From Candidatus Omnitrophota bacterium (GTDB lineage Bacteria > Omnitrophota > Gorgyraeia > JABMQH01): DNA of 64,000 nt. Positions 47,360-61,738 of this stretch are shown piece after piece. Under the pieces are notes generated by a model. That model searched no databases, was not told the DNA's origin, and saw only the letters and a list, made by a program, of their open reading frames with translations. The stretch covers positions 17,806 through 81,805 of the forward strand of contig JAQURK010000001.1 of the NCBI GenBank assembly GCA_028715645.1, in the 5' to 3' direction. Position numbers and translations under genes: made by a program. The first letter of the stretch is position 1. The number at the start of each line of letters is the position of its first letter.

Positions 47360-48855
47360 AACTCACTCCTTTTTTTAAAATCAGAAATATGGCCCATCAC
47401 CTTCATTCCCGACCTCCCAAAATAACTTAACTCGGAGAGGTCCCTAAGTTTTATAAACCGATTAAATAAAAATTGCGGGTTAAGCGCTACCTTGTAAATA
47501 TCCCGCACAAGATCCAGGACCTCTTTATCATTCATGGATACCTTCATTACCGGCTCCTTCATGCCGTACCTGTCCCAATCTTCGGTTTTTAACCATCCGT
47601 TTTTTTTGCATTCCTCAAATAGAGGAGAATGAGGATAAGGGATAACGACCGTAGCCTGCACCGTATAGGCATAGCCTTTCTTTAAAAGATACGCTCCCAA
47701 TTTTAGTCTTTCTTTCGCATCCTCATAGGTTTCCCACGGATAACCAAACATAATGGTGATATGCGGGTATAACCCTGCTGCCCTTGCCGCCTTGCAATCA
47801 TTAACGATGTTTTCTACCTTTAAATTTTTTTTCAACCTATCCAGGGTCTTTTGGTTTGCGGATTCCATACCAAAAAGCAGCAATCTAAAATTCGCCTTTT
47901 TCATTAATTTAAAATCTTCTTTTTTAAGGCTGCCAAACCGCATGTTGCAGTCAAAATAAACTTTTTTATTATATCCTCCGGCGATCATCCCTTTACAGAA
48001 ATCATTAAGCCAGCCTCCGATGGGAAAAGTACCCGTATCATCCATTATTTCGCGGATTTTATTATTTTTTACAAGCGCGCCGATTTCATACAGAACATTT
48101 TCAACCTTGCGAACTCTAAATTGCGGATACAAGGTAGGCCAGCTGCAAAAAGTGCATTTGCCCCACCAGCAGTCACGGCCCGACATTATGTAGGTACCCG
48201 GCGTGCGCTTGTAGTTCCCGTTTGTGTAGGCGTAGTGTTTCCATTCGGTGAGCTCACGGTCAACAAAAGGCAGGGAATTTAGGTCGTGGTTGAGCTGGAA
48301 TTTGCCCGTGTTCCGTATGTGGCCATTCGAACGGTACCAAATCCCGGGTTCCAGATTAGTAATCGGTAATTGGTAATCGGTAATTGGTAATTTACTAAGA
48401 GTCTTGCATAAATTTAATAATAAGAAATCATAATCACCGCCGGTGAGCACAAAATCTACTTTGGAGTTCGCAAATGATTCCTCGGGTAACGCGGTGACAT
48501 GGTCGCCGAATAAAATGGTCAATGGTCTATAGTCAATGGCCGATAGTCCGTTAATGTCATTTATTATTTTCCAATGCTGTTTCACGACCGGGGTCTTGGT
48601 CTCAAAGGCGATGAGGCCTGGCTTCTGGTCTTTTATGAAATTTAAAAATCTTTCATAGTCCCATCTTTGAGCAATGCTGTCATTCCATATAACATCAAAA
48701 CCTGCATTTTTCAGCATCGTTGCGGCATACGCGGGGACTATGGGGTATATATAGGTGGGGCTTTTAAACCATTGAAATTGTCTGTTTTGAGACAAAAGCG
48801 GCGTTCCCGCGCCTTTTAATGGCGGATATGAAATTATAACCTTAAATTTTTTCAT
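47356..48855 (-). CDS. B12-binding-like / radical SAM-like enzyme with non-canonical Cys motif
   Basis: N-terminal B12-binding-like fold. The Cys cluster is CWWGKCTFC (C-x4-C-x2-C). Contains an in-frame 14-bp x2 DNA repeat (LPITDYQLPITN). Confidence 0.6.
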   Translation of the reverse strand: MKKFKVIISYPPLKGAGTPLLSQNRQFQWFKSPTYIYPIVPAYAATMLKNAGFDVIWNDSIAQRWDYERFLNFIKDQKPGLIAFETKTPVVKQHWKIINDINGLSAIDYRPLTILFGDHVTALPEESFANSKVDFVLTGGDYDFLLLNLCKTLSKLPITDYQLPITNLEPGIWYRSNGHIRNTGKFQLNHDLNSLPFVDRELTEWKHYAYTNGNYKRTPGTYIMSGRDCWWGKCTFCSWPTLYPQFRVRKVENVLYEIGALVKNNKIREIMDDTGTFPIGGWLNDFCKGMIAGGYNKKVYFDCNMRFGSLKKEDFKLMKKANFRLLLFGMESANQKTLDRLKKNLKVENIVNDCKAARAAGLYPHITIMFGYPWETYEDAKERLKLGAYLLKKGYAYTVQATVVIPYPHSPLFEECKKNGWLKTEDWDRYGMKEPVMKVSMNDKEVLDLVRDIYKVALNPQFLFNRFIKLRDLSELSYFGRSGMKVMGHISDFKKRSEL

Positions 48856-50216
48856 CTCTTGAGTTTTGTCATAAAGGAGTCGAAAACATTACTTATAAAA
48901 AGGCGCTCATCCTTCGTTATGCCGGGATAAACGCCTATCCAAAACAGATTATTCATAACCATGTCGGAGTTCTTCAAAGAACCAAAAATTTTGTACTTAA
49001 CATCCCGATAGGCCGGCTGTCTTGTGAGGTTTCCGCCGAACAACATACGGGTGGCAATCTTGTTTTTTCCCAGGTAGTTTACAATTTCATTCCGCGTAAA
49101 CGGGACATCACCCCTAACCAAAATCGGAAAGCCGAACCATGATGGTTTTGAATGTTTCGCGGGGCGCGGTAAAATAAAGTATCTTTCATATTTCACCAGC
49201 GCCTTTTGAAAGAATTGAAAATTTTCCTGTCTCTTTCTAATGAATCCGCGCAGTTTTTCGAGCTGTGCGCATCCGATAGCAGCCTGCATATCCGTAATTT
49301 TCAAATTATACCCAATATGAGAATACACATATTTATGGTCGTATCCGTAAGGGAGTTTGCCCAATTTTTGCGAAAACCGCTTACCACAGGTATTGTCATG
49401 GCCCGGTTCGCACCAGCAAAACCTGCCCCAGTCTCTTAGTGACAACAATGCCTTTTGCAGGTCAGGATCGCGCGTCAAGACCGCTCCCCCCTCACCCATT
49501 GTTATATGGTGGGCAGGGTAAAAACTGCAGGTTGAGATATCTCCAAAGGTCCCCGTATACCTTTCCTTGTATTTTGAACCCAGGCCGTCGCAGTTATCCT
49601 CAATAAACCAAAGGTTATGCCTTTTTGCAACCTGTAAAATCCTTTCAATGTCCATGGGATTGCCAAGGGTATGGGGAACAAAAATTGCCCTGGTTTTTTT
49701 AGTCACAGCCCTTTCTATTTTTTCCGCTTGAATATTATATGTCCCTAGCTCTACATCAATGAATACTGGGATTAACCTGTTTTGTATAATAGGATTGAGC
49801 GTCGTAGGAAAGCCGCAGGCAGTAGTAATCACCTCATCCCCCGGCCTTAATCGTCTTTCCTTTAATAAAGGCGAGGTTAGCGCTGACACTGCCAGAAGAT
49901 TTGCTGATGAGCCTGAATTAGTTAAAAGGCAGTATTTGACCCCCAGAAATTCGGCGAATTTATTCTCAAACTCTTTGGCATATCTACCCGAAGTAAGCCA
50001 AAAATCAAGCGATGAATCAACCAGATTAATCAATTCAGCGGAGTCGTAGACCCTTGTTGCATAGGGAATTGCGGTCTTGCCCGGGATGAATTCTTTATCT
50101 ACACCTTTGGCCTTATGGAACTTTCTGATTAATTTAAATATTTCTTTTTTGATATTGTTTTCCGATGTCATAACTGTTACCACCCGGGTTCTTCCAATAA
50201 ATTGCAAGTCTTGCAA
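48852..50216 (-). CDS. ddhC: CDP-6-deoxy-D-xylo-4-hexulose 3-dehydrase (E1), DegT/DnrJ family
   Basis: DegT-family fold with His replacing the PLP-lysine (FYPAHHITMGEGG), plus FCWCEPGHDNTC (C-x-C-x7-C), the diagnostic E1 [2Fe-2S] motif. Confidence 0.85.
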   Translation of the reverse strand: MQDLQFIGRTRVVTVMTSENNIKKEIFKLIRKFHKAKGVDKEFIPGKTAIPYATRVYDSAELINLVDSSLDFWLTSGRYAKEFENKFAEFLGVKYCLLTNSGSSANLLAVSALTSPLLKERRLRPGDEVITTACGFPTTLNPIIQNRLIPVFIDVELGTYNIQAEKIERAVTKKTRAIFVPHTLGNPMDIERILQVAKRHNLWFIEDNCDGLGSKYKERYTGTFGDISTCSFYPAHHITMGEGGAVLTRDPDLQKALLSLRDWGRFCWCEPGHDNTCGKRFSQKLGKLPYGYDHKYVYSHIGYNLKITDMQAAIGCAQLEKLRGFIRKRQENFQFFQKALVKYERYFILPRPAKHSKPSWFGFPILVRGDVPFTRNEIVNYLGKNKIATRMLFGGNLTRQPAYRDVKYKIFGSLKNSDMVMNNLFWIGVYPGITKDERLFISNVFDSFMTKLKR

Positions 50217-51205
50217 ATCTGCGGCGGTTCAGGATTGGGATCCAAAAGCCCCTGCCGCATCTTTACCAGGGTCGGATGGTTAAAGATCTCTTCAGGGGCG
50301 TTTTCAAATAGATTGCTGTTTGGACCCTCCAATATCATGTCAGTGCCGCAACAAACTGCCATCTTCCCGGACATATCACAGCTGATACGCTGCCATAATT
50401 GCGGACAGCGTTTTTTTGCCCCCTTGGCCTTAACTACTGCTGGCCAAAGGCAAAAACCTGGTAAGGCCTCATTTATCCGACGTTGCAATTCAATATATGC
50501 AGGGCTGTTATCAGGGATAATCTCTTCCGGCTTGGGTTTTATGCCCACCGGCCGATACATAAAGAACCTTAAAGAAAGGCATCCCGCATCACGAAGGAAA
50601 CGCGCCGTATTAAGCAGGCCCTCTGGAAACTTCTCCACCATGGTTCGCAATAACACAATGCTTGCATGCACGGGAAAAACTCGATTAATCTCTGGTAGGT
50701 CTCCTTCTATGTCGGATTGGTTCGTATCGTAGATAGATACGTTGATCCGTGAAACGCCAGCCTGCCTTAGCTCAGCAATACGCTGGGCCAACAACAAACC
50801 ATTCGTAGAAATATTGGTGATATGCCCGCGTTCTGTCAAATAAGCGATAATACAGCCTAAATCTTCAACCAGAAGCGGTTCCCCGCCCAAGAGATCAACC
50901 AACAGGCAATTTGCGAATAACGGATTTGCGAAAATGCACTTTACTTTCTCAAGGGTGGCCTCTCTTTCCCATAAATCTGCTTTGCCTTCATGTGATATTC
51001 TGGCCACACTGCAATAACCGCAATCAAGGTTACACCTTAAAGTAACCAACATTGCGCCAATTTGTGGAGTATAGCGGCGGATGGGTATTACCGACTCGCG
51101 TTTTAGGCAACGGTATTTTAGGTAATTCCAAAGCTTGGGGGCCGCCTTTAATGGCCGGACCTTTTTTAGCATCTCAGTGCGATACGAAAGATACGACATC
51201 TTCAT
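50177..51205 (-). CDS. Radical SAM enzyme with SPASM-like C-terminal Cys cluster
   Basis: LRCNLDCGYC (CxxxCxxC). C-terminal CPQLW...CDMSGKMAVCCG...CKTC. Confidence 0.8.
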   Translation of the reverse strand: MKMSYLSYRTEMLKKVRPLKAAPKLWNYLKYRCLKRESVIPIRRYTPQIGAMLVTLRCNLDCGYCSVARISHEGKADLWEREATLEKVKCIFANPLFANCLLVDLLGGEPLLVEDLGCIIAYLTERGHITNISTNGLLLAQRIAELRQAGVSRINVSIYDTNQSDIEGDLPEINRVFPVHASIVLLRTMVEKFPEGLLNTARFLRDAGCLSLRFFMYRPVGIKPKPEEIIPDNSPAYIELQRRINEALPGFCLWPAVVKAKGAKKRCPQLWQRISCDMSGKMAVCCGTDMILEGPNSNLFENAPEEIFNHPTLVKMRQGLLDPNPEPPQICKTCNLLEEPGW

Positions 51206-52138
51206 TTAAAAATTTATACGCTCTTTTTCAATAACCATCGGCCTCTTTAAAACCTGGGTATGTATCGAGCCTACATATTCGCCGATTATCCCTATAAATA
51301 CCATTTGCATAGAAGCAAAAAAGAAAAAGCCGATAACTAACGGGGCGATCCCGAGAGAAAACCTGTTCCAGAATAAAAGTTTATATACAAGATATCCCAG
51401 GGCCACCAGGAAGCATAATAAAGCTGAAAAAAATCCCAGCATGGTAGCGAGACGAAGGGGTATCTTGGAATGGCTGGTGATACCCAGCATTGCGTAATCA
51501 TAAAGAATATAGAAATTATTCTTTGTAATTCCCCACTTGCGTTTGGGTTGTATATACGGTATTTCGGCGCGCTCAAAACCTATTTCACAGATGAGGCCGC
51601 GAAAATACGGCAGCGGATCATCGAGTTTGCGTATAATCTTAATTACCTCCTGATCGTACAAGCCGAATCCTGTGAAATTTTTGATAAGCTTGATGTCGGA
51701 TAGGCCGCCGATAAGGTTGTAATAGGCGTTCTTAAAAATATTCAGTATAGGGGATTCTTGACTTTGGATCCTCACACCCACTACAATCCTGTAACCTTCC
51801 TCCCATTTTTTTATGAAGTCTACTATCATCTCTGGGGGTTGTTGCATATCTGACACTATGCTTATAACAGCGTCTCCCTGGGCCTGTAACATCGCATAAA
51901 CAGGTGATCTCAGCTGGCCGAAATTTCTGGTATTTAATATCACCTTTATATTTCTATCCTGCCTTGCGATATCTCTTAATATTTCCTGAGTCCTGTCTCT
52001 GGAATCATTATCAATAAAGATATGTTCGTAACTATATCCCTTAAGATCCGAAAAAATATTCTTTATCCGGCTATAGATTTCCTGTATGTTGCCTTCTTCA
52101 TTATAACATTGCGTAACAACACTAATATGCTTCACCAT
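51206..52138 (-). CDS. GT2 polyprenyl-phosphate glycosyltransferase (GtrB/ArnC-like)
   Basis: ISVVTQCYNEEGNI...IFIDNDSRDRT and two C-terminal TM helices. Confidence 0.8.
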   Translation of the reverse strand: MVKHISVVTQCYNEEGNIQEIYSRIKNIFSDLKGYSYEHIFIDNDSRDRTQEILRDIARQDRNIKVILNTRNFGQLRSPVYAMLQAQGDAVISIVSDMQQPPEMIVDFIKKWEEGYRIVVGVRIQSQESPILNIFKNAYYNLIGGLSDIKLIKNFTGFGLYDQEVIKIIRKLDDPLPYFRGLICEIGFERAEIPYIQPKRKWGITKNNFYILYDYAMLGITSHSKIPLRLATMLGFFSALLCFLVALGYLVYKLLFWNRFSLGIAPLVIGFFFFASMQMVFIGIIGEYVGSIHTQVLKRPMVIEKERINF

Positions 52139-53118
52139 TTTCTCCTCTCAGCTTGTATTTCGCTTGTCTTCCCTTCTCCATTCTCATCGTCTTTTATGAA
52201 ATATTTTTTGCGTAACTCTTTTGCGTAGTTCAAGTAAAGATCTTCTTTAATGGCATTGACGTCTAGGGTATTTTTAATTTTTTTATAGTGACCAGATAAA
52301 TCGGCTATCGCCCTCTCATATGTAGTAAATTGGAACTTTCCTATTTCAGAAATAAGCCTTTTGTTGTCCCCCGAATACTCAACTCCGACTCCTGGATTTA
52401 ATACTCTTATTTCACATTTATGGTCGCTTACTTTATTAACCAGGCCAGCGATTGTCAGCAAATCAATCGATTCTGTCGGGGTGATATTAAAAATTTTTTC
52501 CTTCGTTTTATTGTTTACAAAGTATACAACTATCTTATAAAGGTCATTACTATATAAATAATCATAAATAACATTTTGATTGATGACTATAGGCATACCA
52601 AGTAGATTTTTCACTATTGAGTTAGATATAAATTTATAACGATAATTCTCGTCTTTCCCGAATATACCAAATATTCTAAAACAAATTAAATTTTCGCTGT
52701 TTGTGTCTTGAATATATTTTGAAATCAAGTATTTTGAATAACTATGGCTATCTTCGGGAATGTATTTGCCAAAATATTCTTCGGACATCTTTTTGTACCA
52801 ATGGCTCCTTGAATACTCTGAACCGCTGCCTAAATTTATCATTTTCATGGAAGGCGTCATATGTCTTTCTATATTAAAAAACATGCGTAAATTATTTTCA
52901 CATGTATTTACGGGGTAAGACGTACCATTTCTTGATGTTGTTGCACAATGTATAATAGTTTCAATATGGTTTTTTTTAAAATATTTGCCTACCTCATTGG
53001 GGTTTGTCAGATCTAGCTCATCTTTAGATGGAGATAATACTGAATATTTGTCTTTTAAAAATAACTCCACTAAATTGCGACCGACAAAACCTCCCGATCC
53101 AGTTATTAAAATACTCAT
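52132..53118 (-). CDS. NAD-dependent epimerase/dehydratase (SDR)
   Basis: MSILITGSGGFVGRNL and YLISKY catalytic motif. Confidence 0.7.
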   Translation of the reverse strand: MSILITGSGGFVGRNLVELFLKDKYSVLSPSKDELDLTNPNEVGKYFKKNHIETIIHCATTSRNGTSYPVNTCENNLRMFFNIERHMTPSMKMINLGSGSEYSRSHWYKKMSEEYFGKYIPEDSHSYSKYLISKYIQDTNSENLICFRIFGIFGKDENYRYKFISNSIVKNLLGMPIVINQNVIYDYLYSNDLYKIVVYFVNNKTKEKIFNITPTESIDLLTIAGLVNKVSDHKCEIRVLNPGVGVEYSGDNKRLISEIGKFQFTTYERAIADLSGHYKKIKNTLDVNAIKEDLYLNYAKELRKKYFIKDDENGEGKTSEIQAERRKW

Positions 53119-53138
53119 AAATACCTATACCTCTTTAG

Positions 53139-54179
53139 TTAAAACCAGTTAATTTTTTTCCAATCAGCAGGATACGCATCTGACCTATCTACTTGAGGCA
53201 AGATATTCTGGTAAAAGAAAGTGTCTCTATTCCCGCACTGACAACTATACTTATTATCATAAGAAAACCACTTCGTACCCAATCCACGTTTTACTATCGT
53301 TTCCAAATCCTCACTAAAAATATTACCGATTGTAATTGGAATCCAAGGACATGGTAACACATCGCCATACGCTGTAATAGAAAAATGTCTCTTCATGCAA
53401 AGACATCCAAATTGGTGACCACAATTTGGAGATAGATGTGTTGAAATATTGTATTTTCCTTGCAAAGATTGGATATATTCAATATCTTTTGAATCGCATA
53501 TTTCGTCCTTATATTCTTCAAATGCTCCCGTGGGCTTTGCATGAATAATGCTTGCATGCTCTCCAAATTGAGCAATATAATCCAATTGCTTAATTAATTC
53601 TCCGCTATTTATCAGGCTTTTAGTGGCGACAATGTTAATAATGACTCCCAGTCCATATTTATTACAATACTTCAAGGCTTCAATACATCTTTTCCATGAT
53701 CCTTTTACCCCCCTAAACATGTTGTGGTTATATTCAAGGCCATCAATACTTAAATGAATTCTGTCAATACCTATTTCCACCAACCATTTTATCTTCTCTT
53801 CACTTAATAACCATCCATTTGTATCCATACTAATAACAAATCTACTGGGGCCTATCGCATCAACGACATCCTTCAGATCCGGAAAAATTAAAGGTTCTCC
53901 TCCAGAAATACAAATACTTGCCAAACCCATTGCATCAGCTTGATCTGCAATTCGTTTAACGTCTGCGATAGATAAAAGCCTGCCATTTTTTTTCTTGAAT
54001 TTTTCAATAGCGCAATGCTTGCATTTAAAATTGCAATCATATTTATATTGTAGCTGAATTAAAGCAACGCATTCTTTATTTTTTATCTTTTCTGGGTGTT
54101 TAATTATTTTTTCATATGCCAATGACTTTTTTTCCTGCAATTTCACTCTGTTCTTTTTTTCTCTATCTGTCATTTCCAT
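53139..54179 (-). CDS. Radical SAM enzyme (SPASM/twitch-like)
   Basis: CNFKCKHC (CxxxCxxC). C-terminal Cys-rich region (CGHQFGCLC...CPW...CQCG). Confidence 0.8.
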   Translation of the reverse strand: MEMTDREKKNRVKLQEKKSLAYEKIIKHPEKIKNKECVALIQLQYKYDCNFKCKHCAIEKFKKKNGRLLSIADVKRIADQADAMGLASICISGGEPLIFPDLKDVVDAIGPSRFVISMDTNGWLLSEEKIKWLVEIGIDRIHLSIDGLEYNHNMFRGVKGSWKRCIEALKYCNKYGLGVIINIVATKSLINSGELIKQLDYIAQFGEHASIIHAKPTGAFEEYKDEICDSKDIEYIQSLQGKYNISTHLSPNCGHQFGCLCMKRHFSITAYGDVLPCPWIPITIGNIFSEDLETIVKRGLGTKWFSYDNKYSCQCGNRDTFFYQNILPQVDRSDAYPADWKKINWF

Positions 54180-54183
54180 TTTT

Positions 54184-55329: not shown

Positions 55330-55353
55330 GACAAACTCCGGTTTTTCTTATTT

Positions 55354-56136
55354 TCAGACATCAAGTCTTTTCTCAAGCATTGCGATTCTCTTTTCGTCTT
55401 CGTTTGTGACGCGGTGATAGTACCGCCTTTTACTCTTTAGCCAAAGAAGCTCAAATTTTATGCCTAAGGGAAGCCCCTTCGAGATATTCTTAATCGCGTT
55501 TTTATGATAGACCAATTTCCGCGTTTCAAATTTACCTAAAAGATTTTCTGATATAATGGTCTCTATAAAGGGTACGCTCTCAATCGAAATGGCCCCGCCA
55601 AGCGCGGTCTTTAAGCCCTTTTCCTTCGCCTTCTGAAAAACATCAAGACAGTATTTTAACATCTCATCGCTGTTCACAAAATTCCTGTCGGCGCCGAGGG
55701 AAGCGGTAAAGTCTACCCTTCCCACGGTTATACCGCTCAACAGGCCTATCTTATCTACATTCAATATCTCGTCTATATTACGGTATGCCGTAATCGTTTC
55801 AATATTAACTGCAAACTCGATATCCTTCTGATTATCTTCGGGCACAAAGGTGTCAATCGCGCTTAAAAATTTACTCACGGCAAAAGCGGTTTCAGCCATC
55901 GGGGCGATAATCCCCCTCGCCCCTAGTGAGAGGGCCTCGTATATGTCGGTTACGGCCTCCACCCCGCCAATTTTCAGGATTAAAGGCAATTGCGCCATAT
56001 TCGCTACGTCCTTTAATCTCATCAACTCGACCAGCCGGCTGCCTTCATTTTCATATTCCGCCTTGATCTCAAAAACGCCGTACTCATTTTTTAATTTTTT
56101 CAACAATTCGATCATTTCATATTCCAAAACATTCAT
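55354..56136 (-). CDS. HpcH/HpaI aldolase / citrate-lyase beta-like protein
   Basis: TIM-barrel aldolase motifs (GARGIIAPMAET...). Associated with the downstream TPP enzyme. Confidence 0.7.
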   Translation of the reverse strand: MNVLEYEMIELLKKLKNEYGVFEIKAEYENEGSRLVELMRLKDVANMAQLPLILKIGGVEAVTDIYEALSLGARGIIAPMAETAFAVSKFLSAIDTFVPEDNQKDIEFAVNIETITAYRNIDEILNVDKIGLLSGITVGRVDFTASLGADRNFVNSDEMLKYCLDVFQKAKEKGLKTALGGAISIESVPFIETIISENLLGKFETRKLVYHKNAIKNISKGLPLGIKFELLWLKSKRRYYHRVTNEDEKRIAMLEKRLDV

Positions 56137-56918
56137 TTCCCCTCCTTAAGATATTGCAGTAATTTATGAAGATTTTCAATAATAAGAACATCCCGCTTTA
56201 AAACACTGCCTTTTAGGCCGATTAAAATTGCCTTACTGTTATAGTTCAAGGCCATTACAATATCGCTTTCATATGAATCACCCACTACCATAATCTCATG
56301 GGGTTTAACTCCAAAGGTTTTTGAAATCCTGGATAAAATATATGTGTTCGGTTTTCCAACAATAAAATCCGGTCTTCTATTTGCGGATGCGGCTATTGCC
56401 CCTACCATCGCGCCGCAGCCGGGCATATATTTGTTTTTTTCGACCGGGAAAAAATTATCTTCATTGCACGCAATAAACCTGCCCCCTTTCAATAAGACCG
56501 AGAGGGCGGTTGCTATCTTTTTATAATTAAAATCAAGGTCAAGGCCGACAACAAGGTTTCGCGCCGAAGCATTATCCATAATCCTGAGGCCGCTGTTTTT
56601 AATTTCCCTGCGAAGGCCACGAGAACCAACCACATACAAATTATCTATTCCTGACTCGTTAAGATAAAAGGCCGTCAGGGCAGAAGAGGTATAGAGTTCG
56701 CTCAGTCCGCACTTAATCCCCAGCCTGTTTAATTTTTCGCTCACTTCTCTTTTTGTCCTCGAGGAGTTGTTTGTGAAAAATACAACCTTATACCTTTTTC
56801 TTAAATAATCAACAAGTTCGATTGCGCCTGTAATAACGTCTCCTCCCATATAGAGGGTGCCGTCCAAGTCAAGCGCAAACAGCTTTATCTTCCCGGCGCA
56901 TTCAAACCTTTTCCGCAT
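56133..56918 (-). CDS. HAD-superfamily hydrolase, subfamily IIA
   Basis: FALDLDGTLY motif I, FFTNNSSR, and a C-terminal GD motif. Confidence 0.8.
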   Translation of the reverse strand: MRKRFECAGKIKLFALDLDGTLYMGGDVITGAIELVDYLRKRYKVVFFTNNSSRTKREVSEKLNRLGIKCGLSELYTSSALTAFYLNESGIDNLYVVGSRGLRREIKNSGLRIMDNASARNLVVGLDLDFNYKKIATALSVLLKGGRFIACNEDNFFPVEKNKYMPGCGAMVGAIAASANRRPDFIVGKPNTYILSRISKTFGVKPHEIMVVGDSYESDIVMALNYNSKAILIGLKGSVLKRDVLIIENLHKLLQYLKEGK

Positions 56919-58707
56919 CCGTATCCTTTTTGATCATATTTAAATAAAATTCATCCCGCGCAAGAAGGGGGGAAAGATCTTCCAACGGCCTTGATATGAT
57001 TCGCCCGTCCGCCATTTTTTCCGACGACAATTTGGGGGCAAAGACATAATCCTTATTCAAAATAACTTCGCAGATCAATCCTGTCCGGCAAGACAAAATA
57101 TCCTTAATTACCATTCCCATCCTAGCGGTGGAATTTATTCTAAAATAATTTAAGCCGTATAAATCCGCGACCTTGGAGAAATCCGGAAATGAGACACCCG
57201 ATTCCTTATTACAGCCTATAAATTTCTTATTAAAAAATTCTGTTTGAGTCAGCTCAATTGAGCGGTAGCCTTGATTATTTAAAATAAATATTTTTATCGG
57301 CAGATTATAGTGCCTTATGGTCTGAAATTCCTGAATATTCATCTGAATGCTGCCGTCGCCTGCGATACAAACTATGTCCTTATTCCCCGCCAGGGCGGCG
57401 CCGATGGAAGCGGGCAAATCATACCCCATCGAGGCGCAGCCGGAATTCCAAAAAATACGCTGCCCTGTCTTGACAATGCCTGCTTGAAACAGGCCAACAC
57501 ACGCGGTTCCGTTTCCGGCGATGATAATAGCATCATCATCCAGAGCGGCCGTCAATTCTTCAACAAAATGGTAGGGGTGAACGGACGATTCGCTTTGGGT
57601 TTTGTATTCATCCAAAACAACAGGATATCTTTTCTTAAGGCTGCGGCACCGTTCAAGCCATGATTTATCAATTTTGAGACCTTTTTGGATTCTTTCCAAT
57701 AACATGGTTATAAAAACCTTTGCGTCAGAATGAACCAGTAGGTCGCCTTTTAATGTTTTTTTACGCAGCTCCGCTTCGTCAATATCAATGACTATTTTCA
57801 TTGCGCGACTGGCAAATGAGGCCCAGTTGTAGCTGACCTGCCTGATATTATTTCTGGTTCCAAGGCATATAACAAGGTCCGCGTTTTGAAGGGCAAAATT
57901 TCCTGCGCGGCTTCCGAGCGTCCCTATCCTGCCGATAAAATTATCTGAATTGGAGGCGATTAAATCGAATCCATTAAATGTGGTGACGACGGGGATGTCC
58001 AATAACTCAACCAGTTTCAAAAACTCTTTTTTGGCCTTTGCAATCCTGATACCATGTCCGGCAATGAATAGCGGCCGTTTGGCCTTTTTAAGCTCTTTAA
58101 TAACAACCGCCATGACTCCGTCTTCTGCCGCCTGCGGAATATAATTCATTTTATCGCCCTGAAGATTCCGTTCATCAATCAACGCCCCTTGAATATTCAA
58201 TGGAATATCCAGCCATACCGGCCCCGGCCTTCCCGAGGTAGCGGTATAAATGGCCCTGTCTAATTCCATTTTTATGGCATCGGGCTCAGTCACCATCTTT
58301 GCATATTTGGTAACCGGCTTTACAATATCAATTATATTAATCTCCTGATCGCCCAATTGGCGTAAGCGGTTGCCGGGATCAGACGCGATGGTTGTTTCAT
58401 ATTTTACTTGGCCGGAAAGGTATAATACGGGGACGGAGTCAAGCCACTGCCCAACAACCCCTGTTAAGGTATTGGTTCCTCCGGGGCCAGATGTAACACT
58501 AACAACCGCCAACCCTCCCTTTGTTCTGGCATACCCTTCCGCCGCAATCGCAGCCGCCTGCTCATGGTGGGCGCACACATATTTAATTCGTTTTTCCTTT
58601 TGCAAGGCGTCATTTAGATGCATCGCGCCGCCGCCAACCACAAGAAAGACATGCCTAATCCCATAATCGGCTAAATAGTTAAAGATATAATCAGCTACCC
58701 TTATCAT
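56902..58707 (-). CDS. Thiamine-pyrophosphate enzyme, acetolactate-synthase large-subunit-like (YerE-like candidate)
   Basis: 601 aa with N-terminal TPP-Pyr, central and C-terminal TPP-PP domains (GDGS...N motif). Confidence 0.85.
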   Translation of the reverse strand: MIRVADYIFNYLADYGIRHVFLVVGGGAMHLNDALQKEKRIKYVCAHHEQAAAIAAEGYARTKGGLAVVSVTSGPGGTNTLTGVVGQWLDSVPVLYLSGQVKYETTIASDPGNRLRQLGDQEINIIDIVKPVTKYAKMVTEPDAIKMELDRAIYTATSGRPGPVWLDIPLNIQGALIDERNLQGDKMNYIPQAAEDGVMAVVIKELKKAKRPLFIAGHGIRIAKAKKEFLKLVELLDIPVVTTFNGFDLIASNSDNFIGRIGTLGSRAGNFALQNADLVICLGTRNNIRQVSYNWASFASRAMKIVIDIDEAELRKKTLKGDLLVHSDAKVFITMLLERIQKGLKIDKSWLERCRSLKKRYPVVLDEYKTQSESSVHPYHFVEELTAALDDDAIIIAGNGTACVGLFQAGIVKTGQRIFWNSGCASMGYDLPASIGAALAGNKDIVCIAGDGSIQMNIQEFQTIRHYNLPIKIFILNNQGYRSIELTQTEFFNKKFIGCNKESGVSFPDFSKVADLYGLNYFRINSTARMGMVIKDILSCRTGLICEVILNKDYVFAPKLSSEKMADGRIISRPLEDLSPLLARDEFYLNMIKKDTDAEKV

Positions 58708-58736
58708 AATTTCTTTAGAACCCCTTTAATGAAATG

Positions 58737-59231
58737 TTACAAATACTTTCTGTATATTTCATGAAATTTTAATAAATTCTCAGGGCAGGTCTTATGCCAC
58801 ATAAGGTATCCCGCGTCGCTGCTGGAAAGCTCTGTATTTTTAGGAACAAAATCTGATGTCAATGAACATTTAAACAAGATTGAAATGAAATGGCCTCTGA
58901 CGTCATGTTCTTTTAGAATTATTTGATTTATCGCAATGGGGGCGGGATCAAAATTAACGGGCGCCCCTATTTCAGCTTCAGCCACTTTTTTGACCCTTGT
59001 ATCCAGGGTTTCTTTGAATCTGACGATGCCGCCCGGCAGATGCCATCCCTTGCCCGAGTATTTGTCGTCCCTCCACGATAGGAGCGTACGCTTAAATTCA
59101 TCCTTTATCAAGAGGTCAACATTTACCAGCGGGGTCACTCGGCTTATGTAATAGAATACCTCATCGGGTAGGCCCGCCTTGGGATTCGGGCTGTGTTTTT
59201 CAATGATTGCTATGGCATCCGTAAGATTCAT
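58737..59231 (-). CDS. Nudix hydrolase, GDP-mannose mannosyl hydrolase-like
   Basis: GWHLPGGIVRFKETLDTRVKKVAEAEIG variant Nudix box. ~160 aa like Gmm/WcaH. Sits in a GDP-sugar context (gmd nearby). Confidence 0.65.
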   Translation of the reverse strand: MNLTDAIAIIEKHSPNPKAGLPDEVFYYISRVTPLVNVDLLIKDEFKRTLLSWRDDKYSGKGWHLPGGIVRFKETLDTRVKKVAEAEIGAPVNFDPAPIAINQIILKEHDVRGHFISILFKCSLTSDFVPKNTELSSSDAGYLMWHKTCPENLLKFHEIYRKYL

Positions 59232-59248
59232 AAAATACCCTCGATTGA

Positions 59249-59989
59249 TTAAAATTCTATTTTTGTATCATCTATGGCCGCAAAGGTATTCCTGAATATG
59301 GATCTTGCCTCCATCTCGGCCTTCTTTCGATCCTTCAGGGTTAAATATAAATTACTATCAAAGTGTACCAAGGCCAGCCTTTTTATCCCGGCGGCCTTTG
59401 CCATCTGTGACGCGCTTCGCGGATTCAGGTGCGGCCAGTTATTATCCTCTTTATTAGATTTATACGCGCATTCCGAAATAAGCAAGTCCGCGCCCTTAGC
59501 CAGATGATAGAGATTTTTACAAACCCCCGTATCGGTACAAAAACTGATTATTTTATTTTCCAGAGAAAAACGATATCCGTAGCAGGTAACCGGATGTCTC
59601 AGCTTTTTAAATTTAACATCTAAAGGACTGGAATTTTTTTTATTTAGCTCATGCAGTCTCAGATCCATCTTCAATTTCGCGAATGGCATCGTGTAAGGTT
59701 TATTAATAATTTGACGGAAAAACCTTTTCAGGCCAGGAGGCCCATATACATCTATCCCCTGCGGAAAACTGAATTTAGCCAGGGTATGCAAACCAATAAC
59801 ATGATCTAAATGAAAATGGCTTAAAAATAAATAAACTGGTTTTTGTCCTGTAACGTACCGGCCTATTTTATAAAATCCGCCGCCTGCATCCAGGATTATA
59901 TATTCCGTTCTTGTTTCAATAAGCACGCAGAGGGTATTGCCTGTTTTTGTATCATACCAGCCGTTTGTACCCAAAAAAATGATCTTCAT
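59249..59989 (-). CDS. MBL-fold metallo-hydrolase
   Basis: HFHLDHVIGL (HxHxDH) motif. Confidence 0.8.
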   Translation of the reverse strand: MKIIFLGTNGWYDTKTGNTLCVLIETRTEYIILDAGGGFYKIGRYVTGQKPVYLFLSHFHLDHVIGLHTLAKFSFPQGIDVYGPPGLKRFFRQIINKPYTMPFAKLKMDLRLHELNKKNSSPLDVKFKKLRHPVTCYGYRFSLENKIISFCTDTGVCKNLYHLAKGADLLISECAYKSNKEDNNWPHLNPRSASQMAKAAGIKRLALVHFDSNLYLTLKDRKKAEMEARSIFRNTFAAIDDTKIEF

Positions 59990-60960
59990 ATTTGCCTAAA
60001 AATTTTCTTATACCAGTTTATGGTTAATGTCAGTCCCCTGTCTAATGAATATACCGGCTTCCATCCCAAGACCCTCCTGGCCTTTTTCGCAGACAGGTAC
60101 TGTTTTTTTATTTCGTATCTTGCCTTATTAATAACCTTGCAATTTAATTTTTTATTGGCTGATCTATAAATCTTCTTTGTCAATCCCAGCACCGAAATCG
60201 GATCTTCATTGCTAAAATTAAAGGCCTCCCCATAGATCCCCTTCTTAACCATCCTTTCCGCCAGCATGATGTAGCCGTTTACAATATCGCCTATGTATAC
60301 ATAATCCCTTATGAATTTACCATCGCTTCGTATCAACAGCGTCTCATTGGTAATAGCGCAGCGTATGGCATCCGGCACGAGTCTGGAAAAATGAAAATCC
60401 CCTTCTCCGTAAATATTTCCGCACCTGGTAATGCAGACAGGGACATTATAGGTATTAAAATATGTATAGGCCAGCAAATCAGCGCAGCTCTTGGATACAT
60501 CGTAAGGATGAGCGCCCTTAAGCGACGCTTCTTCGGTATAGGGTAGTTTCTTGTGCGCACCGTAAGCCTTATCGCTGGAGGCTATCACAACGGCTTCTAT
60601 AAATTTTTTATTACGGGATGCCTCTAAAATATTCCATGTGCCTTCTATATTTGATTTGAAGGCCTTGACAGGTTTTTTATTTGCTTCGCCGACAATCGCC
60701 TCGGCCGCCAGATGAAAAATCACCTCTGGTTTATGCCTGGCTATAATGCGGTTTATAAGCCTCATATCCGCGACATCACCTTTTACGCAAATAATATTCC
60801 TCCTTGAATCCTCCAGTATGGAGATAGGCCTGTTAATTACTTTGTCTACGCCAATTACAGCGGCCCCGCGCTTCAAAAGCGCCCTGGCAAGCCATGATCC
60901 CAAAAACCCTTCATGCCCCGTTATCAGCACCTTCTTATTTTCCCAAAACTTATTCGGCAT
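59986..60960 (-). CDS. ddhB: CDP-glucose 4,6-dehydratase-like SDR
   Basis: VLITGHEGFLGSWLARAL resembles the RfbG GHTGFKGSWL signature. YDVSK catalytic motif. Adjacent to rfbF. Confidence 0.75.
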   Translation of the reverse strand: MPNKFWENKKVLITGHEGFLGSWLARALLKRGAAVIGVDKVINRPISILEDSRRNIICVKGDVADMRLINRIIARHKPEVIFHLAAEAIVGEANKKPVKAFKSNIEGTWNILEASRNKKFIEAVVIASSDKAYGAHKKLPYTEEASLKGAHPYDVSKSCADLLAYTYFNTYNVPVCITRCGNIYGEGDFHFSRLVPDAIRCAITNETLLIRSDGKFIRDYVYIGDIVNGYIMLAERMVKKGIYGEAFNFSNEDPISVLGLTKKIYRSANKKLNCKVINKARYEIKKQYLSAKKARRVLGWKPVYSLDRGLTLTINWYKKIFRQI

Positions 60961-60961
60961 T

Positions 60962-61738
60962 TTAGCTCCAAACCTTCCAGGGGGCGCATCCTGATTGCCA
61001 GAGTTTTTCCAGCTCTATCCTATCCCTTAGGGTATCCATGCATTTCCAGAATCCGCTATGCTTATAGGCGGCCAATTGGCCATCTCTCACTAGGCCTTCG
61101 AGCGGCTCTCTTTCCCATATCGTGGCATCGCCCTCTTTTATGTAGTTAAATATCTCCGGGTCCAAAACAAAAAATCCGGCATTTATCCAGCTGTCCTCTC
61201 CCCTCGGTTTTTCAAGAAACGATTTCACGCTGTTATTATCACGAATATCCAAAATGCCGAATCTGCCGGTTGTTTGAACAGCGGTCAATGTAGCAAGTCC
61301 TTTATTCTTTCTGTGGGCCTTGATAAGGGCCTTTATATCTATATCCGCTACCCCATCGCCATAGGTCAGCATAAATGTCTCATCACCGATATACCTCTCA
61401 ACCCTTTTTAACCTTCCGCCCGTCAGCGTCTCGCCTCCCGTATCCACCAGCGTAACCTTCCATGGTTCGGATGCCGTCTGATGTACTTTCATTTTATTTG
61501 ATGTAAGGTCGATAGTTACATCAGTCATATGCAAAAAATAGTGCGAAAAATATTCCTTTATGATATAACCGCGGTAACCCAGGCATATAATAAATTCGTT
61601 GACGCCGTAATGCGAGAATATCTTCATGATGTGCCATAGAATAGGTTTGCCTCCTATCTCTATCATAGGCTTTGGTATAACCTCTGTCTCTTCGCTAATC
61701 CTTGTCCCTCTTCCCCCTGCAAGCACAACTACTTTCAT
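60962..61738 (-). CDS. ddhA: Glucose-1-phosphate cytidylyltransferase
   Basis: MKVVVLAGGRGTRISEETEVIPKPMIEIGGKPILWHIMKIFSHYGVNEFIICLGYRGYIIKEYF, near-collinear with RfbF. Confidence 0.9.
   Translation of the reverse strand: MKVVVLAGGRGTRISEETEVIPKPMIEIGGKPILWHIMKIFSHYGVNEFIICLGYRGYIIKEYFSHYFLHMTDVTIDLTSNKMKVHQTASEPWKVTLVDTGGETLTGGRLKRVERYIGDETFMLTYGDGVADIDIKALIKAHRKNKGLATLTAVQTTGRFGILDIRDNNSVKSFLEKPRGEDSWINAGFFVLDPEIFNYIKEGDATIWEREPLEGLVRDGQLAAYKHSGFWKCMDTLRDRIELEKLWQSGCAPWKVWS

What the first reader, a model, noticed from the sequence alone, without database searches (positions are those of the whole stretch)
48852..61738. CDP-3,6-dideoxyhexose pathway core (ddhA, ddhB, E1) with accessory branching and methylation enzymes; E3 reductase not in window
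Three pathway genes are present:
- rfbF-like cytidylyltransferase (60962-61738), nearly collinear with Salmonella RfbF;
- rfbG-like 4,6-dehydratase (59986-60960);
- an E1 3-dehydrase (48852-50216) with the His-for-Lys substitution and the C-x-C-x7-C iron-sulfur motif.

The partner E3 reductase is not seen. A C-methyltransferase and a YerE-like TPP enzyme are interspersed, so the end product is likely not a plain abequose/paratose/tyvelose but a branched or methylated derivative (yersiniose-like).
Basis: partly seen in the sequence, partly recalled or inferred. Interest (0 to 1): 0.65.

Follow-up and report, generated by a model that had tools for sequence, protein, structure and literature searches.

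The report
Branched dideoxy-sugar biosynthesis operon, no E3
The three CDP-3,6-dideoxyhexose genes are real and belong to a tightly packed operon, shared by many bacterial phyla, that most likely makes a long-side-chain branched sugar for the cell surface; it is a new variant of a known kind of pathway rather than a new kind.

Summary
RfbF (60962-61738) and E1/RfbH (48852-50171; the true start is probably the ATG at 50171, not the TTG at 50216) pass their NCBIfam cut-offs. They align end to end with the Salmonella and Yersinia crystal-structure proteins. E1 keeps the His-for-Lys substitution and all four [2Fe-2S] cysteines. The RfbG-like gene is a divergent CDP-glucose 4,6-dehydratase: it scores below the family cut-off but keeps the Asp-Lys pair. 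No E3-type reductase occurs in the window or in about 65 related loci.

The genes between them are not loose accessories. RfbF, RfbG, a ThDP enzyme, a HAD phosphatase, an HpcH-fold aldolase, an SDR, RfbH and an ArnC-like GT2 form a conserved operon. It occurs in Omnitrophota, CPR bacteria, Campylobacter concisus, Chlorobiaceae, SAR11 and others.

This matches the published scheme for erwiniose and caryophyllose: an aldolase makes an alpha-keto acid, and a YerE-like ThDP enzyme attaches it to C4 of CDP-4-keto-3,6-dideoxyglucose. The window version adds a sugar C-methyltransferase, radical SAM enzymes and a Nudix protein.

The product is unknown. E1 presumably draws electrons from a housekeeping ferredoxin or flavodoxin. 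I rate it a new variant of a known kind, of moderate interest.

The parts
60962..61738 (-). RfbF/DdhA, glucose-1-phosphate cytidylyltransferase (makes CDP-glucose)
   Evidence: TIGR02623 at 424.6 bits, above the cut-off of 300. 1TZF at E 2.7e-105, collinear over residues 2-257.
59986..60960 (-). Divergent short (324 aa) CDP-glucose 4,6-dehydratase (RfbG/DdhB-like)
   Evidence: TIGR02622 at 234 bits, below the cut-off of 278 but the best family. Best PDB hits are 1WVG and 1RKX. The SSDKAY Asp-Lys pair and YDVSK are kept. It starts 1 nt after the rfbF stop.
59249..59989 (-). Metallo-beta-lactamase-fold hydrolase (RNase Z-like); role unknown
   Evidence: Pfam Lactamase_B_2. A homologue sits at the same position after rfbG in 4 related loci: L033, L037, L046 and L057.
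58737..59231 (-). Nudix protein with a degenerate Nudix box, weakly similar to GDP-mannose mannosyl hydrolase
   Evidence: Pfam NUDIX E 1.3e-4. NF011963 E 5.5e-9. It is 54-74% identical in 12 related loci, all of the HAD type. The box reads GGIVRFKETLDTRVKKVAEAEIG.
56902..58707 (-). ThDP-dependent carboligase of the YerE/JanthE-like group (proposed C4 branching enzyme)
   Evidence: All three TPP_enzyme domains are present. Best PDB hit is 8RPH (JanthE) at 410 bits, then 5AHK at 260 bits, against plant AHAS at 238 bits. PMC12188165 identifies 8RPH as JanthE. Homologues are 67-79% identical across phyla.
56133..56918 (-). HAD-IIA phosphatase, overlapping the ThDP gene by 17 nt
   Evidence: TIGR01460 HAD-SF-IIA at 122.6 bits, above the cut-off of 100. 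Present in 37 of 65 related loci. It never co-occurs with the AroB-like phospholyase module.
55354..56136 (-). HpcH/HpaI-fold class II aldolase-like protein; the signature gene of the cassette
   Evidence: Pfam HpcH_HpaI E 1.9e-9. The AlphaFold model has pLDDT 91. Foldseek top hits are SwHKA, HpaI and YfaU at TM about 0.6. The metal ligands E113 and D142 are kept, and K55 aligns with the catalytic Arg of YfaU. 1156 protein clusters match in the public database.
54184..55329 (-). NDP-hexose C-methyltransferase (TylC3/TcaB9/MtmC type)
   Evidence: Pfam Methyltransf_13 (zinc ribbon, below its cut-off), Methyltransf_23 and Methyltransf_14 (C-terminal). Best PDB hits are 4RV9 (D-mycarose 3-C-methyltransferase) and TcaB9. 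Present in 19 related loci.
53139..54179 (-). Radical SAM/SPASM enzyme; substrate unknown
   Evidence: Pfam Radical_SAM plus SPASM. It is 63-92% identical (one locus 40%) in 8 related loci. The nearest structures, MoaA and SkfB, match only weakly.
52132..53118 (-). Extended SDR (RmlD-like N-terminus); proposed side-chain or C4 ketoreductase in the role of YerF
   Evidence: Pfam Epimerase and RmlD_sub_bind. GxxGxxG and YLISK motifs are visible in the translation. Present in 40 of 65 related loci.
51206..52138 (-). GT2 polyprenyl-phosphate glycosyltransferase (ArnC/GtrB/PgfS-like)
   Evidence: NF047588 PgfS E 3.7e-55 and ArnC NF007986 E 1.9e-34, both below their cut-offs. Present in 31 related loci, often next to GtrA.
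50177..51205 (-). Radical SAM enzyme with a twitch/SPASM C-terminus
   Evidence: Pfam Radical_SAM plus SPASM. NF033640 twitch domain. Homologues at 54-55% identity occur only in L017 and L054.
48852..50171 (-). E1 / RfbH / DdhC: PMP- and [2Fe-2S]-dependent CDP-4-keto-6-deoxyglucose 3-dehydrase
   Evidence: NF011936 at 703.8 bits. 3BCX at E 1.4e-162. His221/His222 and Cys194/252/254/262 are present. The public gene call is 439 aa.
47356..48855 (-). B12-binding radical SAM enzyme, overlapping the E1 stop by 4 nt; probable methyltransferase-type tailoring enzyme
   Evidence: Pfam B12-binding (below its cut-off) plus Radical_SAM. Only weak HpnJ and BchE hits. Not conserved in related loci.

Best explanation
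The region is one long minus-strand operon in a Candidatus Omnitrophica genome. It most likely builds a CDP-activated 3,6-dideoxyhexose carrying a long acyl-derived branch on C4.

Proposed steps:
1. RfbF makes CDP-glucose.
2. The RfbG-like SDR makes CDP-4-keto-6-deoxyglucose.
3. E1 removes the 3-OH. It uses PMP and its [2Fe-2S] cluster, with electrons from a housekeeping ferredoxin or flavodoxin system rather than a dedicated E3.
4. In parallel, the HpcH-fold aldolase condenses pyruvate with a phosphorylated aldehyde, and the HAD-IIA phosphatase removes the phosphate. This gives a hydroxylated alpha-keto acid.
5. The YerE/JanthE-like ThDP enzyme decarboxylates that acid and adds the acyl anion to the C4 ketone.
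6. The SDR reduces the resulting side-chain ketone.
7. In this elaborated version, the TylC3-type C-methyltransferase and the radical SAM enzymes tailor the sugar further.
8. The ArnC-like GT2 loads the sugar onto a polyprenyl phosphate for transfer to a surface glycan outside the cytoplasmic membrane.

What is shown: the gene identities, the E1 motifs, the operon conservation and the absence of E3. What is inferred: the order of steps, the phosphorylated precursor, the electron donor and the product.
For: Enzyme identities:
- RfbF, RfbG-like and E1.
- The ThDP enzyme hits the YerE-like enzyme JanthE (8RPH) best, at 410 bits against 238 bits for AHAS (PMC12188165).
- The aldolase fold is supported by a pLDDT 91 model whose top Foldseek hits are all class II pyruvate aldolases.

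Operon structure:
- The ThDP, HAD and HpcH genes overlap by 17 and 4 nt.
- The trio is syntenic with RfbF, RfbG, RfbH and the SDR in Wolfebacteria, Desulfococcaceae and a metagenome contig.
- Among 65 loci carrying the aldolase, 51 have the ThDP enzyme, 44 RfbG, 40 the SDR, 38 RfbH, 37 RfbF and 31 the ArnC-like GT2.
- C. concisus has the minimal order RfbF-RfbG-TPP-HAD-HpcH-SDR-RfbH...GtrA-GT2.

Phosphorylated precursor:
- HAD (37 loci) and an AroB-like 'sugar phosphate phospholyase' (TIGR04425, 425 bits) with a short-chain reductase (14 loci) never co-occur. Both sit next to the aldolase. This suggests that both remove a phosphate from the side-chain precursor.

Published precedent:
- The scheme of pyruvate aldolase, YerE-like ThDP enzyme and reductase acting on CDP-4-keto-3,6-dideoxyglucose was proposed for erwiniose, caryophyllose and gastriose, and the ThDP step was tested in vitro with analogue acceptor substrates. 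An aldolase/citrate-lyase-family gene (MMAR_2331) lies next to the ThDP gene, and the R. palustris cluster also has a SAM methyltransferase (PMC9306805).
- SpnQ, an E1 homologue, works with general ferredoxin or flavodoxin reductases (PMC8987622).
Against: - No product structure or biochemical data exist for any member of this cassette.
- The ThDP enzyme is only about 35% identical to JanthE. It scores only slightly better against PpYerE (260 bits) than against AHAS (238 bits). I could not compare it with YerE, ErwE or MMAR_2332 themselves.
- The aldolase-like protein is remote from characterised HpcH enzymes (15-20% identity, TM about 0.6). An invariant Lys sits where they have the catalytic Arg.
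- A Novosphingobium megaplasmid has RfbF-RfbG-HpcH-like with no ThDP enzyme or RfbH nearby. The aldolase-like protein may therefore act on the nucleotide sugar itself.
- The phosphorylated precursor is inferred only from the HAD versus AroB-like alternation.
- E3 could still be encoded elsewhere in the genome. Only 64 kb of a 125 kb contig was visible.
Confidence: 0.55

Rival explanations
1. Plain yersiniose-type pathway. The ThDP enzyme uses pyruvate to add a two-carbon acetyl branch and the SDR reduces it. The HAD and HpcH-like genes have another job, such as supplying or recycling pyruvate or modifying the glycan.
For: RfbF, RfbG, E1, a ThDP enzyme and an SDR are exactly the yersiniose gene set apart from E3. 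PMC12247030 lists pyruvate among the donor substrates accepted by JanthE, the closest solved relative. The HpcH-like protein has Lys in place of the catalytic Arg.
Against: The ThDP, HAD and HpcH genes are translationally coupled. The aldolase co-occurs with the ThDP gene in 51 of 65 loci across more than ten phyla. In the characterised erwiniose and caryophyllose clusters, an aldolase next to the ThDP gene marks a longer donor, and ErwE refuses pyruvate (PMC9306805).
Confidence: 0.15
2. Reversed order, or direct action on the sugar. The HpcH-like enzyme works on the nucleotide sugar itself. It might add pyruvate to the C4 ketone, or extend an acetyl branch after the ThDP step, rather than pre-forming a free alpha-keto acid.
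For: The Novosphingobium humi megaplasmid has RfbF-RfbG-HpcH-like...GT2 with no ThDP enzyme or RfbH within 12 kb. The family is very divergent from free-acid aldolases and has an altered catalytic residue. Several loci with adequate flanks lack the ThDP gene, for example L058 and L056.
Against: The closest structures are all pyruvate or hydroxypyruvate aldolases acting on small aldehydes. A 38%-identical homologue in Ilyobacter sits among organic-acid enzymes. The alternation between HAD and the AroB-like lyase is easier to explain with a small phosphorylated acid. For erwiniose the reversed order was tested and disfavoured (PMC9306805).
Confidence: 0.15
3. Two separate products. RfbF, RfbG, E1 and the SDR make an ordinary or C-methylated 3,6-dideoxyhexose. 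The ThDP-HAD-HpcH module makes an unrelated non-sugar substituent or metabolite.
For: The SDR has an RmlD-like N-terminus compatible with a C4 ketoreductase. The operon also encodes other sugar pathways: GDP-mannose dehydratase at 46367-47359 and many glycosyltransferases.
Against: The ThDP enzyme's best solved relative is a YerE-like ketone-accepting carboligase. RfbH and the ThDP-HpcH pair travel together across phyla in one small operon with a single ArnC-like transferase.
Confidence: 0.1
4. The E1 homologue does not do reductive 3-deoxygenation here, because there is no E3. Instead it acts like ColD or an aminotransferase.
For: No E3 in the window or in the related loci. SpnQ shows aminotransferase activity when no reductase is supplied (PMC8987622).
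Against: All four [2Fe-2S] cysteines and the catalytic His are kept here. In 35 full-length cassette homologues, 33 keep the C-x-C-x7-C motif and 30 keep the HH motif. The score against the E1 structure (545 bits) far exceeds that against ColD (192 bits).
Confidence: 0.03

Closest known systems
Biosynthetic clusters for erwiniose, caryophyllose and gastriose (ErwE/ErwI/ErwF of Pectobacterium atrosepticum; MMAR_2331/2332 of Mycobacterium marinum; MyGE/MygI/MygF of M. gastri; putative R. palustris CGA009 cluster). Source: PMC9306805.
   Same: The logic and gene set match. Both have genes for CDP-4-keto-3,6-dideoxyglucose, a YerE-like ThDP carboligase, an adjacent pyruvate-aldolase-type gene, an NAD(P)H reductase and a glycosyltransferase. 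[quoted passage not shown] The R. palustris cluster also has a SAM methyltransferase.
   Different: This cassette has no E3. It has a HAD-IIA phosphatase, replaced in some relatives by an AroB-like phospholyase plus a reductase. Its HpcH-like protein carries Lys where the catalytic Arg should be. This window also has a TylC3-type sugar C-methyltransferase, up to four radical SAM enzymes, a Nudix protein and an MBL hydrolase. The hosts are mostly uncultivated phyla. I could not test orthology to ErwE, MMAR_2332 or MMAR_2331.
Yersiniose A pathway of Yersinia pseudotuberculosis (DdhA-D, YerE, YerF)
   Same: RfbF, RfbG, E1, a ThDP branching enzyme and a reductase; a CDP-linked 3,6-dideoxy-4-keto acceptor.
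   Different: Yersinia has the dedicated E3 (DdhD/AscD) and no aldolase or phosphatase, and YerE prefers pyruvate, giving a two-carbon branch. The window's ThDP enzyme scores little better against the YerE homologue PpYerE than against AHAS.
JanthE (Janthinobacterium sp. HH01; PDB 8RPH/8RPI/8RPJ)
   Same: It is the closest solved relative of the window's ThDP enzyme: 410 bits, aligned from residue 2 to 591 including the C-terminal PLEDLSPL tail. [quoted passage not shown]
   Different: Identity is only about 35%. JanthE has an unusual CDG ThDP motif, whereas the window protein has the canonical GDG. I do not know JanthE's physiological role or gene neighbourhood.
SpnQ (spinosyn forosamine pathway), an E1 homologue without a dedicated E3
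   Same: A PMP/[2Fe-2S] 3-dehydrase whose gene cluster lacks E3 and which uses general ferredoxin or flavodoxin reductases (PMC8987622).
   Different: SpnQ acts on a TDP-2,6-dideoxy sugar in an actinomycete secondary-metabolite cluster. The window's protein is a true RfbH equivalog (704 bits) next to CDP-glucose enzymes.

Membership tests
CDP-3,6-dideoxyhexose (ddh/asc/rfb) pathway | Glucose-1-phosphate cytidylyltransferase (DdhA/RfbF) | tested here: met
   TIGR02623 at 424.6 bits, above the cut-off of 300.25. 1TZF at E 2.7e-105, collinear.
CDP-3,6-dideoxyhexose (ddh/asc/rfb) pathway | CDP-glucose 4,6-dehydratase (DdhB/RfbG) with the Asp-Lys catalytic pair | tested here: inconclusive
   The best family and best structures are the CDP enzymes, and the D-K pair and YxxxK motif are present. 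However, 234 bits is below the curated cut-off of 278, and the protein is about 30 residues shorter than the canonical enzymes.
CDP-3,6-dideoxyhexose (ddh/asc/rfb) pathway | E1 (DdhC/AscC/RfbH): His in place of the PLP lysine, and a C-x57-C-x-C-x7-C [2Fe-2S] motif | tested here: met
   NF011936 at 703.8 bits, above the cut-off of 423. 3BCX at E 1.4e-162. H221 and C194/252/254/262 are present.
CDP-3,6-dideoxyhexose (ddh/asc/rfb) pathway | E3 (DdhD/AscD): an FNR-like NADH:[2Fe-2S] reductase encoded with E1 | tested here: not met
   No Fer2, FAD_binding_6 or NAD_binding_1 domain in any ORF of 100 aa or more. No plant-type ferredoxin Cys motif in the window's six frames or in the ORFs of 66 related loci. 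The rest of the genome was not visible.
YerE-type acyl-branched sugar clusters (scheme of PMC9306805) | ThDP-dependent carboligase of the YerE-like subclass | tested here: inconclusive
   The best solved relative is the YerE-like enzyme JanthE (410 bits), well above AHAS (238 bits). PpYerE scores only 260 bits. I could not obtain YerE, ErwE or MMAR_2332 for a phylogeny.
YerE-type acyl-branched sugar clusters (scheme of PMC9306805) | Pyruvate aldolase gene adjacent to the ThDP gene, supplying a longer alpha-keto acid donor | tested here: inconclusive
   An HpcH/HpaI-fold gene lies one gene downstream of the ThDP gene, coupled through the HAD gene by 17-nt and 4-nt overlaps. It matches Pfam PF03328, and Foldseek top hits are class II pyruvate aldolases with the metal ligands kept. 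However, the catalytic Arg aligns with Lys, and no activity data exist.
YerE-type acyl-branched sugar clusters (scheme of PMC9306805) | NAD(P)H-dependent reductase (YerF-like) for the side-chain ketone | tested here: inconclusive
   A conserved extended SDR (52132-53118) occurs in 40 of 65 loci. Orthology to YerF was not tested because I had no sequence for it.
NDP-hexose C-methyltransferases (TylC3/TcaB9/MtmC) | Three-part architecture: N-terminal zinc ribbon, class I SAM domain, C-terminal Methyltransf_14 domain | tested here: met
   Methyltransf_14 at 53.4 bits (cut-off 23.5) and Methyltransf_23 at 57.6 bits. Methyltransf_13 at 26.7 bits is below its cut-off of 31.3, but CxxC...CxxC is visible. 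Best PDB hits are 4RV9 and TcaB9.
Gtr/Arn-type polyprenyl-phosphate-sugar decoration systems | GtrB/ArnC-like GT2, a GtrA-type flippase and a GT-C transferase | tested here: inconclusive
   The ArnC/PgfS-like GT2 is present. GtrA is present in 23 related loci, but no GtrA homologue was found in the window. A GT-C-like ORF (STT3/PMT_2) lies at 35112-36731.

The most novel reading that the evidence does not exclude
The aldolase-ThDP-SDR-RfbFGH cassette defines a widespread, so far undescribed family of higher-carbon branched surface sugars.
- Spread: more than 1000 protein clusters of the signature aldolase, in Omnitrophota, CPR/Patescibacteria, SAR11, SAR86, Chlorobiaceae, Campylobacter concisus and others.
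- Side chain: it would come from a phosphorylated 2-keto-3-deoxy acid that is dephosphorylated either hydrolytically (HAD) or by elimination (AroB-like lyase plus reductase).
- Tailoring: in the Omnitrophota and CPR version, the sugar is then C-methylated and modified by radical SAM enzymes.
- Electrons: E1 is driven by housekeeping ferredoxin or flavodoxin, so E3 is dispensable in nature for CDP-sugar 3-deoxygenation.
Probability: 0.3. Interest if true: 0.6.

Novelty: new variant of a known kind. Interest (0 to 1): 0.45.

Why it matters
Acyl-branched 3,6-dideoxyhexoses such as yersiniose, erwiniose and caryophyllose have been described in only a handful of cultured bacteria. There they are surface-glycan components, and the M. 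marinum caryophyllose-containing glycolipid has a reported immunomodulatory effect (PMC9306805). This window shows that the same chemical logic is packaged as a compact, horizontally shared operon in many uncultivated lineages. These include ultra-small CPR bacteria and Omnitrophota, and also the human-associated Campylobacter concisus, which can be cultured and would allow the product to be determined.

The cassette also offers a natural test of two questions. One is whether E1-type 3-deoxygenation needs a dedicated E3. The other is how the side-chain donor is made, given the alternation between HAD and the AroB-like module. The YerE-like ThDP enzymes are also sought as biocatalysts for tertiary alcohols, so a large, well conserved new subfamily has practical interest.

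Tried and rejected
- **Reading beyond the window to look for E3.** Exact-protein look-ups returned nothing or only short Logan contigs of 2.9 and 5.5 kb. The 125 kb NCBI contig could not be fetched.
- **Looking for E3 by motif instead.** No plant-type ferredoxin Cys motif occurs in the window or the related loci.
- **Comparing with YerE, ErwE, MMAR_2332 and MMAR_2331.** Their sequences were not obtainable. The paper's supplement is not held. The 2024 survey of more than 200 YerE-like clusters (Krug et al., Angew. Chem. e202403535) is not held.
- **Plasmid search with the ThDP enzyme.** It found only an ordinary ilvB.
- **Searching the window for cassette genes seen elsewhere.** No homologue of GtrA, the roughly 690-aa membrane protein, the AroB-like lyase or the 437-aa radical SAM enzyme turned up.
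- **A combined literature search** on RfbH, radical SAM, thiamine, C-methyltransferase and CDP-glucose found no paper.
- **E1 as a DegT-type aminotransferase or a ColD-type dehydratase.** I considered and rejected this.
- **RfbF or RfbG as dTDP or UDP enzymes.** I considered and rejected this.

Full report
**Source and layout**

The window comes from a Candidatus Omnitrophica metagenome-assembled genome. The E1, ThDP and aldolase-like proteins are each 100% identical to NCBI proteins from a 125,466-bp contig of that organism. Every gene from about 23 kb to the right end lies on the minus strand. From 42754 to 63960 the genes overlap or are at most 33 nt apart, so they form one long operon. G+C is lower here (0.34-0.44) than in the housekeeping part of the window (0.46-0.51).

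RfbF (60962-61738):
- It scores 424.6 bits on the glucose-1-phosphate cytidylyltransferase equivalog (cut-off 300); the next family scores 95 bits.
- It aligns over residues 2-257 with residues 4-258 of Salmonella RfbF (1TZF), E 2.7e-105.

The RfbG-like gene (59986-60960):
- It starts one base after the rfbF stop.
- Its best family (TIGR02622, 234 bits) and best structures (1WVG and 1RKX, 156 bits) are CDP-glucose 4,6-dehydratases, ahead of the dTDP enzymes at 181 and 133 bits.
- It keeps SSDKAY and YDVSK. The Asp-Lys pair replaces the Asp-Glu pair of dTDP-glucose dehydratases; that distinction rests on my own knowledge of the Salmonella and Yersinia structures.
- It falls short of the curated cut-off of 278 bits and is about 30 residues shorter than the canonical enzymes. 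I therefore call it a divergent CDP-glucose dehydratase.

E1 (48852-50216):
- It scores 703.8 bits on the RfbH equivalog (cut-off 423).
- It hits the Yersinia E1 structure at E 1.4e-162, against 192 bits for ColD and 146 bits or less for the lysine-containing DegT-type aminotransferases listed with it.
- It has SFYPAHHITMGEGG and Cys194/252/254/262. These match His220 and Cys193/251/253/261 of AscC, given the one-residue offset in the alignment.
- The real start is almost certainly the ATG at 50171, five bases after the stop of the upstream gene. Both public gene calls give 439 aa, and the AscC alignment begins there.

**E3 is absent, and not only here**

None of the ORFs of 100 aa or more that I scanned from the window (essentially every minus-strand one) has a ferredoxin, FAD_binding_6 or NAD_binding_1 domain. 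No CX4CX2C-x20-40-C motif occurs in any frame. The tight gene spacing leaves no room for a missed gene within the operon. The same motif is absent from all 839 ORFs of 120 aa or more in the 66 related loci examined.

E1 normally receives two electrons from E3. The E1 homologue SpnQ instead uses general ferredoxin or flavodoxin reductase pairs (PMC8987622). Of 35 full-length cassette E1 homologues, 33 keep the C-x-C-x7-C motif and 30 keep the HH motif. The most economical reading is therefore that a housekeeping electron donor is used. This is inferred, because the rest of these genomes could not be searched.

**The interspersed genes form a conserved cassette**

The ThDP enzyme has homologues 67-79% identical in Omnitrophota, Parcubacteria, Wolfebacteria, Elusimicrobia, Desulfococcaceae and marine samples. 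Three neighbourhoods carry most of the same genes, in similar order: NTP-transferase, SDR dehydratase, Nudix, (B12 radical SAM), ThDP enzyme, HAD, HpcH-like, C-methyltransferase, radical SAM/SPASM, SDR, and DegT/RfbH. The Desulfococcaceae locus lacks the NTP-transferase and DegT genes.

A scan of species-representative genomes with the HpcH-like protein returned 63 loci from more than fifteen lineages. They include cultured Campylobacter concisus, Chlorobium sp. N1, Leptolyngbya and Pseudothioglobus. Clustering all ORFs gave these counts among the 65 loci that carry the aldolase-like gene:

| Gene | Loci |
|---|---|
| ThDP enzyme | 51 |
| RfbG | 44 |
| SDR | 40 |
| RfbH | 38 |
| HAD | 37 |
| RfbF | 37 |
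| ArnC-like GT2 | 31 |
| C-methyltransferase | 19 |
| B12 radical SAM | 13 |
| Nudix | 12 |
| This radical SAM/SPASM | 8 |

Many contigs are short, so these are lower bounds. The minimal operon, as in C. concisus, is RfbF-RfbG-ThDP-HAD-HpcH-SDR-RfbH-(large membrane protein)-GtrA-GT2. The window carries the elaborated version.

**What the cassette proteins are**

- *ThDP enzyme.* It has the three standard domains. Its best solved relative is 8RPH (410 bits, aligned 2-591), then 5AHK (260 bits), then plant AHAS (238 bits). 8RPH is JanthE, a YerE-like enzyme that couples alpha-keto acids to ketones (PMC12188165, PMC12247030). 5AHK is, to my knowledge, PpYerE. Identity to JanthE is about 35%; this figure is approximate because I rebuilt the JanthE sequence by hand from the printed alignment.
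- *HpcH-like protein.* It gives only a weak Pfam hit. An AlphaFold model with pLDDT 91 finds class II pyruvate or hydroxy-keto-acid aldolases as its top matches (SwHKA, HpaI, YfaU; TM about 0.6, 15-20% identity). E113 and D142 align with the metal ligands of YfaU. The invariant K55 aligns with its catalytic Arg74, though through a weak alignment segment.
- *HAD.* It belongs to subfamily IIA.
- *C-methyltransferase.* It has the TylC3/TcaB9 architecture.
- *GT2 at 51206-52138.* It resembles ArnC and PgfS. In relatives it sits beside GtrA. This suggests transfer to a polyprenyl phosphate and use outside the cytoplasmic membrane.

**Fit to known chemistry**

Steitz et al. (PMC9306805) proposed a unifying scheme for erwiniose, caryophyllose and gastriose and tested the ThDP enzymes in vitro with analogue acceptors. 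A pyruvate aldolase makes a hydroxylated alpha-keto acid. A YerE-like ThDP enzyme adds it to CDP-4-keto-3,6-dideoxyglucose. A reductase then finishes the branch. [quoted passage not shown] The cassette here has the same parts in one operon, so I assign it to this kind of pathway.

One further observation bears on the donor. The HAD (37 loci) and an AroB-like 'sugar phosphate phospholyase' (TIGR04425, 425 bits, above its cut-off) with a short-chain reductase (14 loci) never co-occur, and both sit next to the aldolase gene. Two different ways of removing a phosphate at the same position suggest that the side-chain precursor is phosphorylated. It could be the aldol product of pyruvate with a triose, tetrose or glycolaldehyde phosphate. 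This is inference only.

**Caveats and rivals**

- The aldolase-like protein is remote from characterised enzymes.
- A Novosphingobium megaplasmid has RfbF-RfbG-HpcH-like with no ThDP enzyme or RfbH, so the protein might act on the nucleotide sugar directly.
- An Ilyobacter homologue, by contrast, sits among organic-acid enzymes.
- A plain yersiniose product, or two separate products, cannot be excluded.
- The roles of the Nudix protein, the MBL hydrolase and the four radical SAM enzymes are unknown.

**Novelty**

The gene identities and the general scheme are known. A 2024 in-silico survey reportedly lists more than 200 YerE-like clusters (cited in PMC12247030; I could not read it). What appears new relative to the literature I could access:
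- E3 is consistently absent.
- HAD and the AroB-like module alternate.
- The aldolase has Lys in place of the catalytic Arg.
- The Omnitrophota and CPR version is elaborated with C-methylation and radical SAM enzymes.
- The cassette is spread across uncultivated phyla.

I rate it a new variant of a known kind, with moderate interest.

Noticed in passing
L037:8262-10000, L039, L048, L061 and 10 other related loci: In 14 related loci the HAD phosphatase is replaced by an AroB-like 'sugar phosphate phospholyase (cyclizing)' (TIGR04425, 425 bits), with a FabG-like short-chain reductase beside it in 13 of them. The two solutions never co-occur, and both lie next to the aldolase-like gene.
   Followed up: partly
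window 55354-56136 (residue K55): The HpcH-fold protein has an invariant Lys where YfaU and HpaI have the catalytic Arg (R74/R70), while the two metal ligands are kept. The meaning for catalysis is unknown.
   Followed up: partly
L072 (Novosphingobium humi megaplasmid NZ_CP103869.1, 1001256-1026026): RfbF, RfbG and a 42%-identical HpcH-like gene are adjacent, with an ArnC-like GT2 3 kb downstream, but no ThDP enzyme or RfbH lies within 12 kb. This may be a variant in which the aldolase-like enzyme works without the ThDP step.
   Followed up: no
L071 (Ilyobacter polytropus pILYOP01, 159322-160095): A 38%-identical homologue of the aldolase-like protein sits among aconitase, isocitrate/isopropylmalate dehydrogenases, PrpF and a 2-hydroxycarboxylate transporter. 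That is an organic-acid context, not a sugar one.
   Followed up: no
window 59249-59989: An MBL-fold (RNase Z-like) gene directly follows rfbG. A homologue (45-53% identity) sits at the same position in Chlorobiaceae and Nealsonbacteria loci (L033, L037, L046, L057). Its role is unknown.
   Followed up: partly
window 58737-59231: The Nudix protein has a degenerate Nudix box (KVAEAEIG instead of REUXEEXGU) and a weak match to GDP-mannose mannosyl hydrolase. It may be a CDP-sugar glycosyl hydrolase or a non-hydrolytic relative.
   Followed up: no
window 42754-44142, 47356-48855, 38526-39569, 50177-51205, 53139-54179: Five radical SAM genes (two B12-binding, three SPASM/twitch) lie within 16 kb of a glycan operon. 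That is an unusually high density for a surface-polysaccharide locus.
   Followed up: partly
window 46367-47359: A GDP-mannose 4,6-dehydratase scores 399 bits, just under the cut-off of 415. It indicates a second, GDP-linked 6-deoxy sugar pathway in the same operon. No obvious partner reductase was identified.
   Followed up: no
window 52001-54000: This is the lowest G+C of the window (0.337). It covers the SDR and the radical SAM/SPASM gene.
   Followed up: no
window 15564-16559 and 16564-17577: Two adjacent paralogous galactose-1-phosphate uridylyltransferase-like genes (GalP_UDP_transf/DUF4921) lie next to the glycolysis genes gap, pgk and tpi.
   Followed up: no
window 36697-38535, 8011-10701 and 17582-18889: Three large ORFs (612, 896 and 435 aa) have no Pfam match. 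The 612-aa ORF lies inside the glycan region, next to a GT-C-like (STT3/PMT_2) gene at 35112-36731.
   Followed up: no
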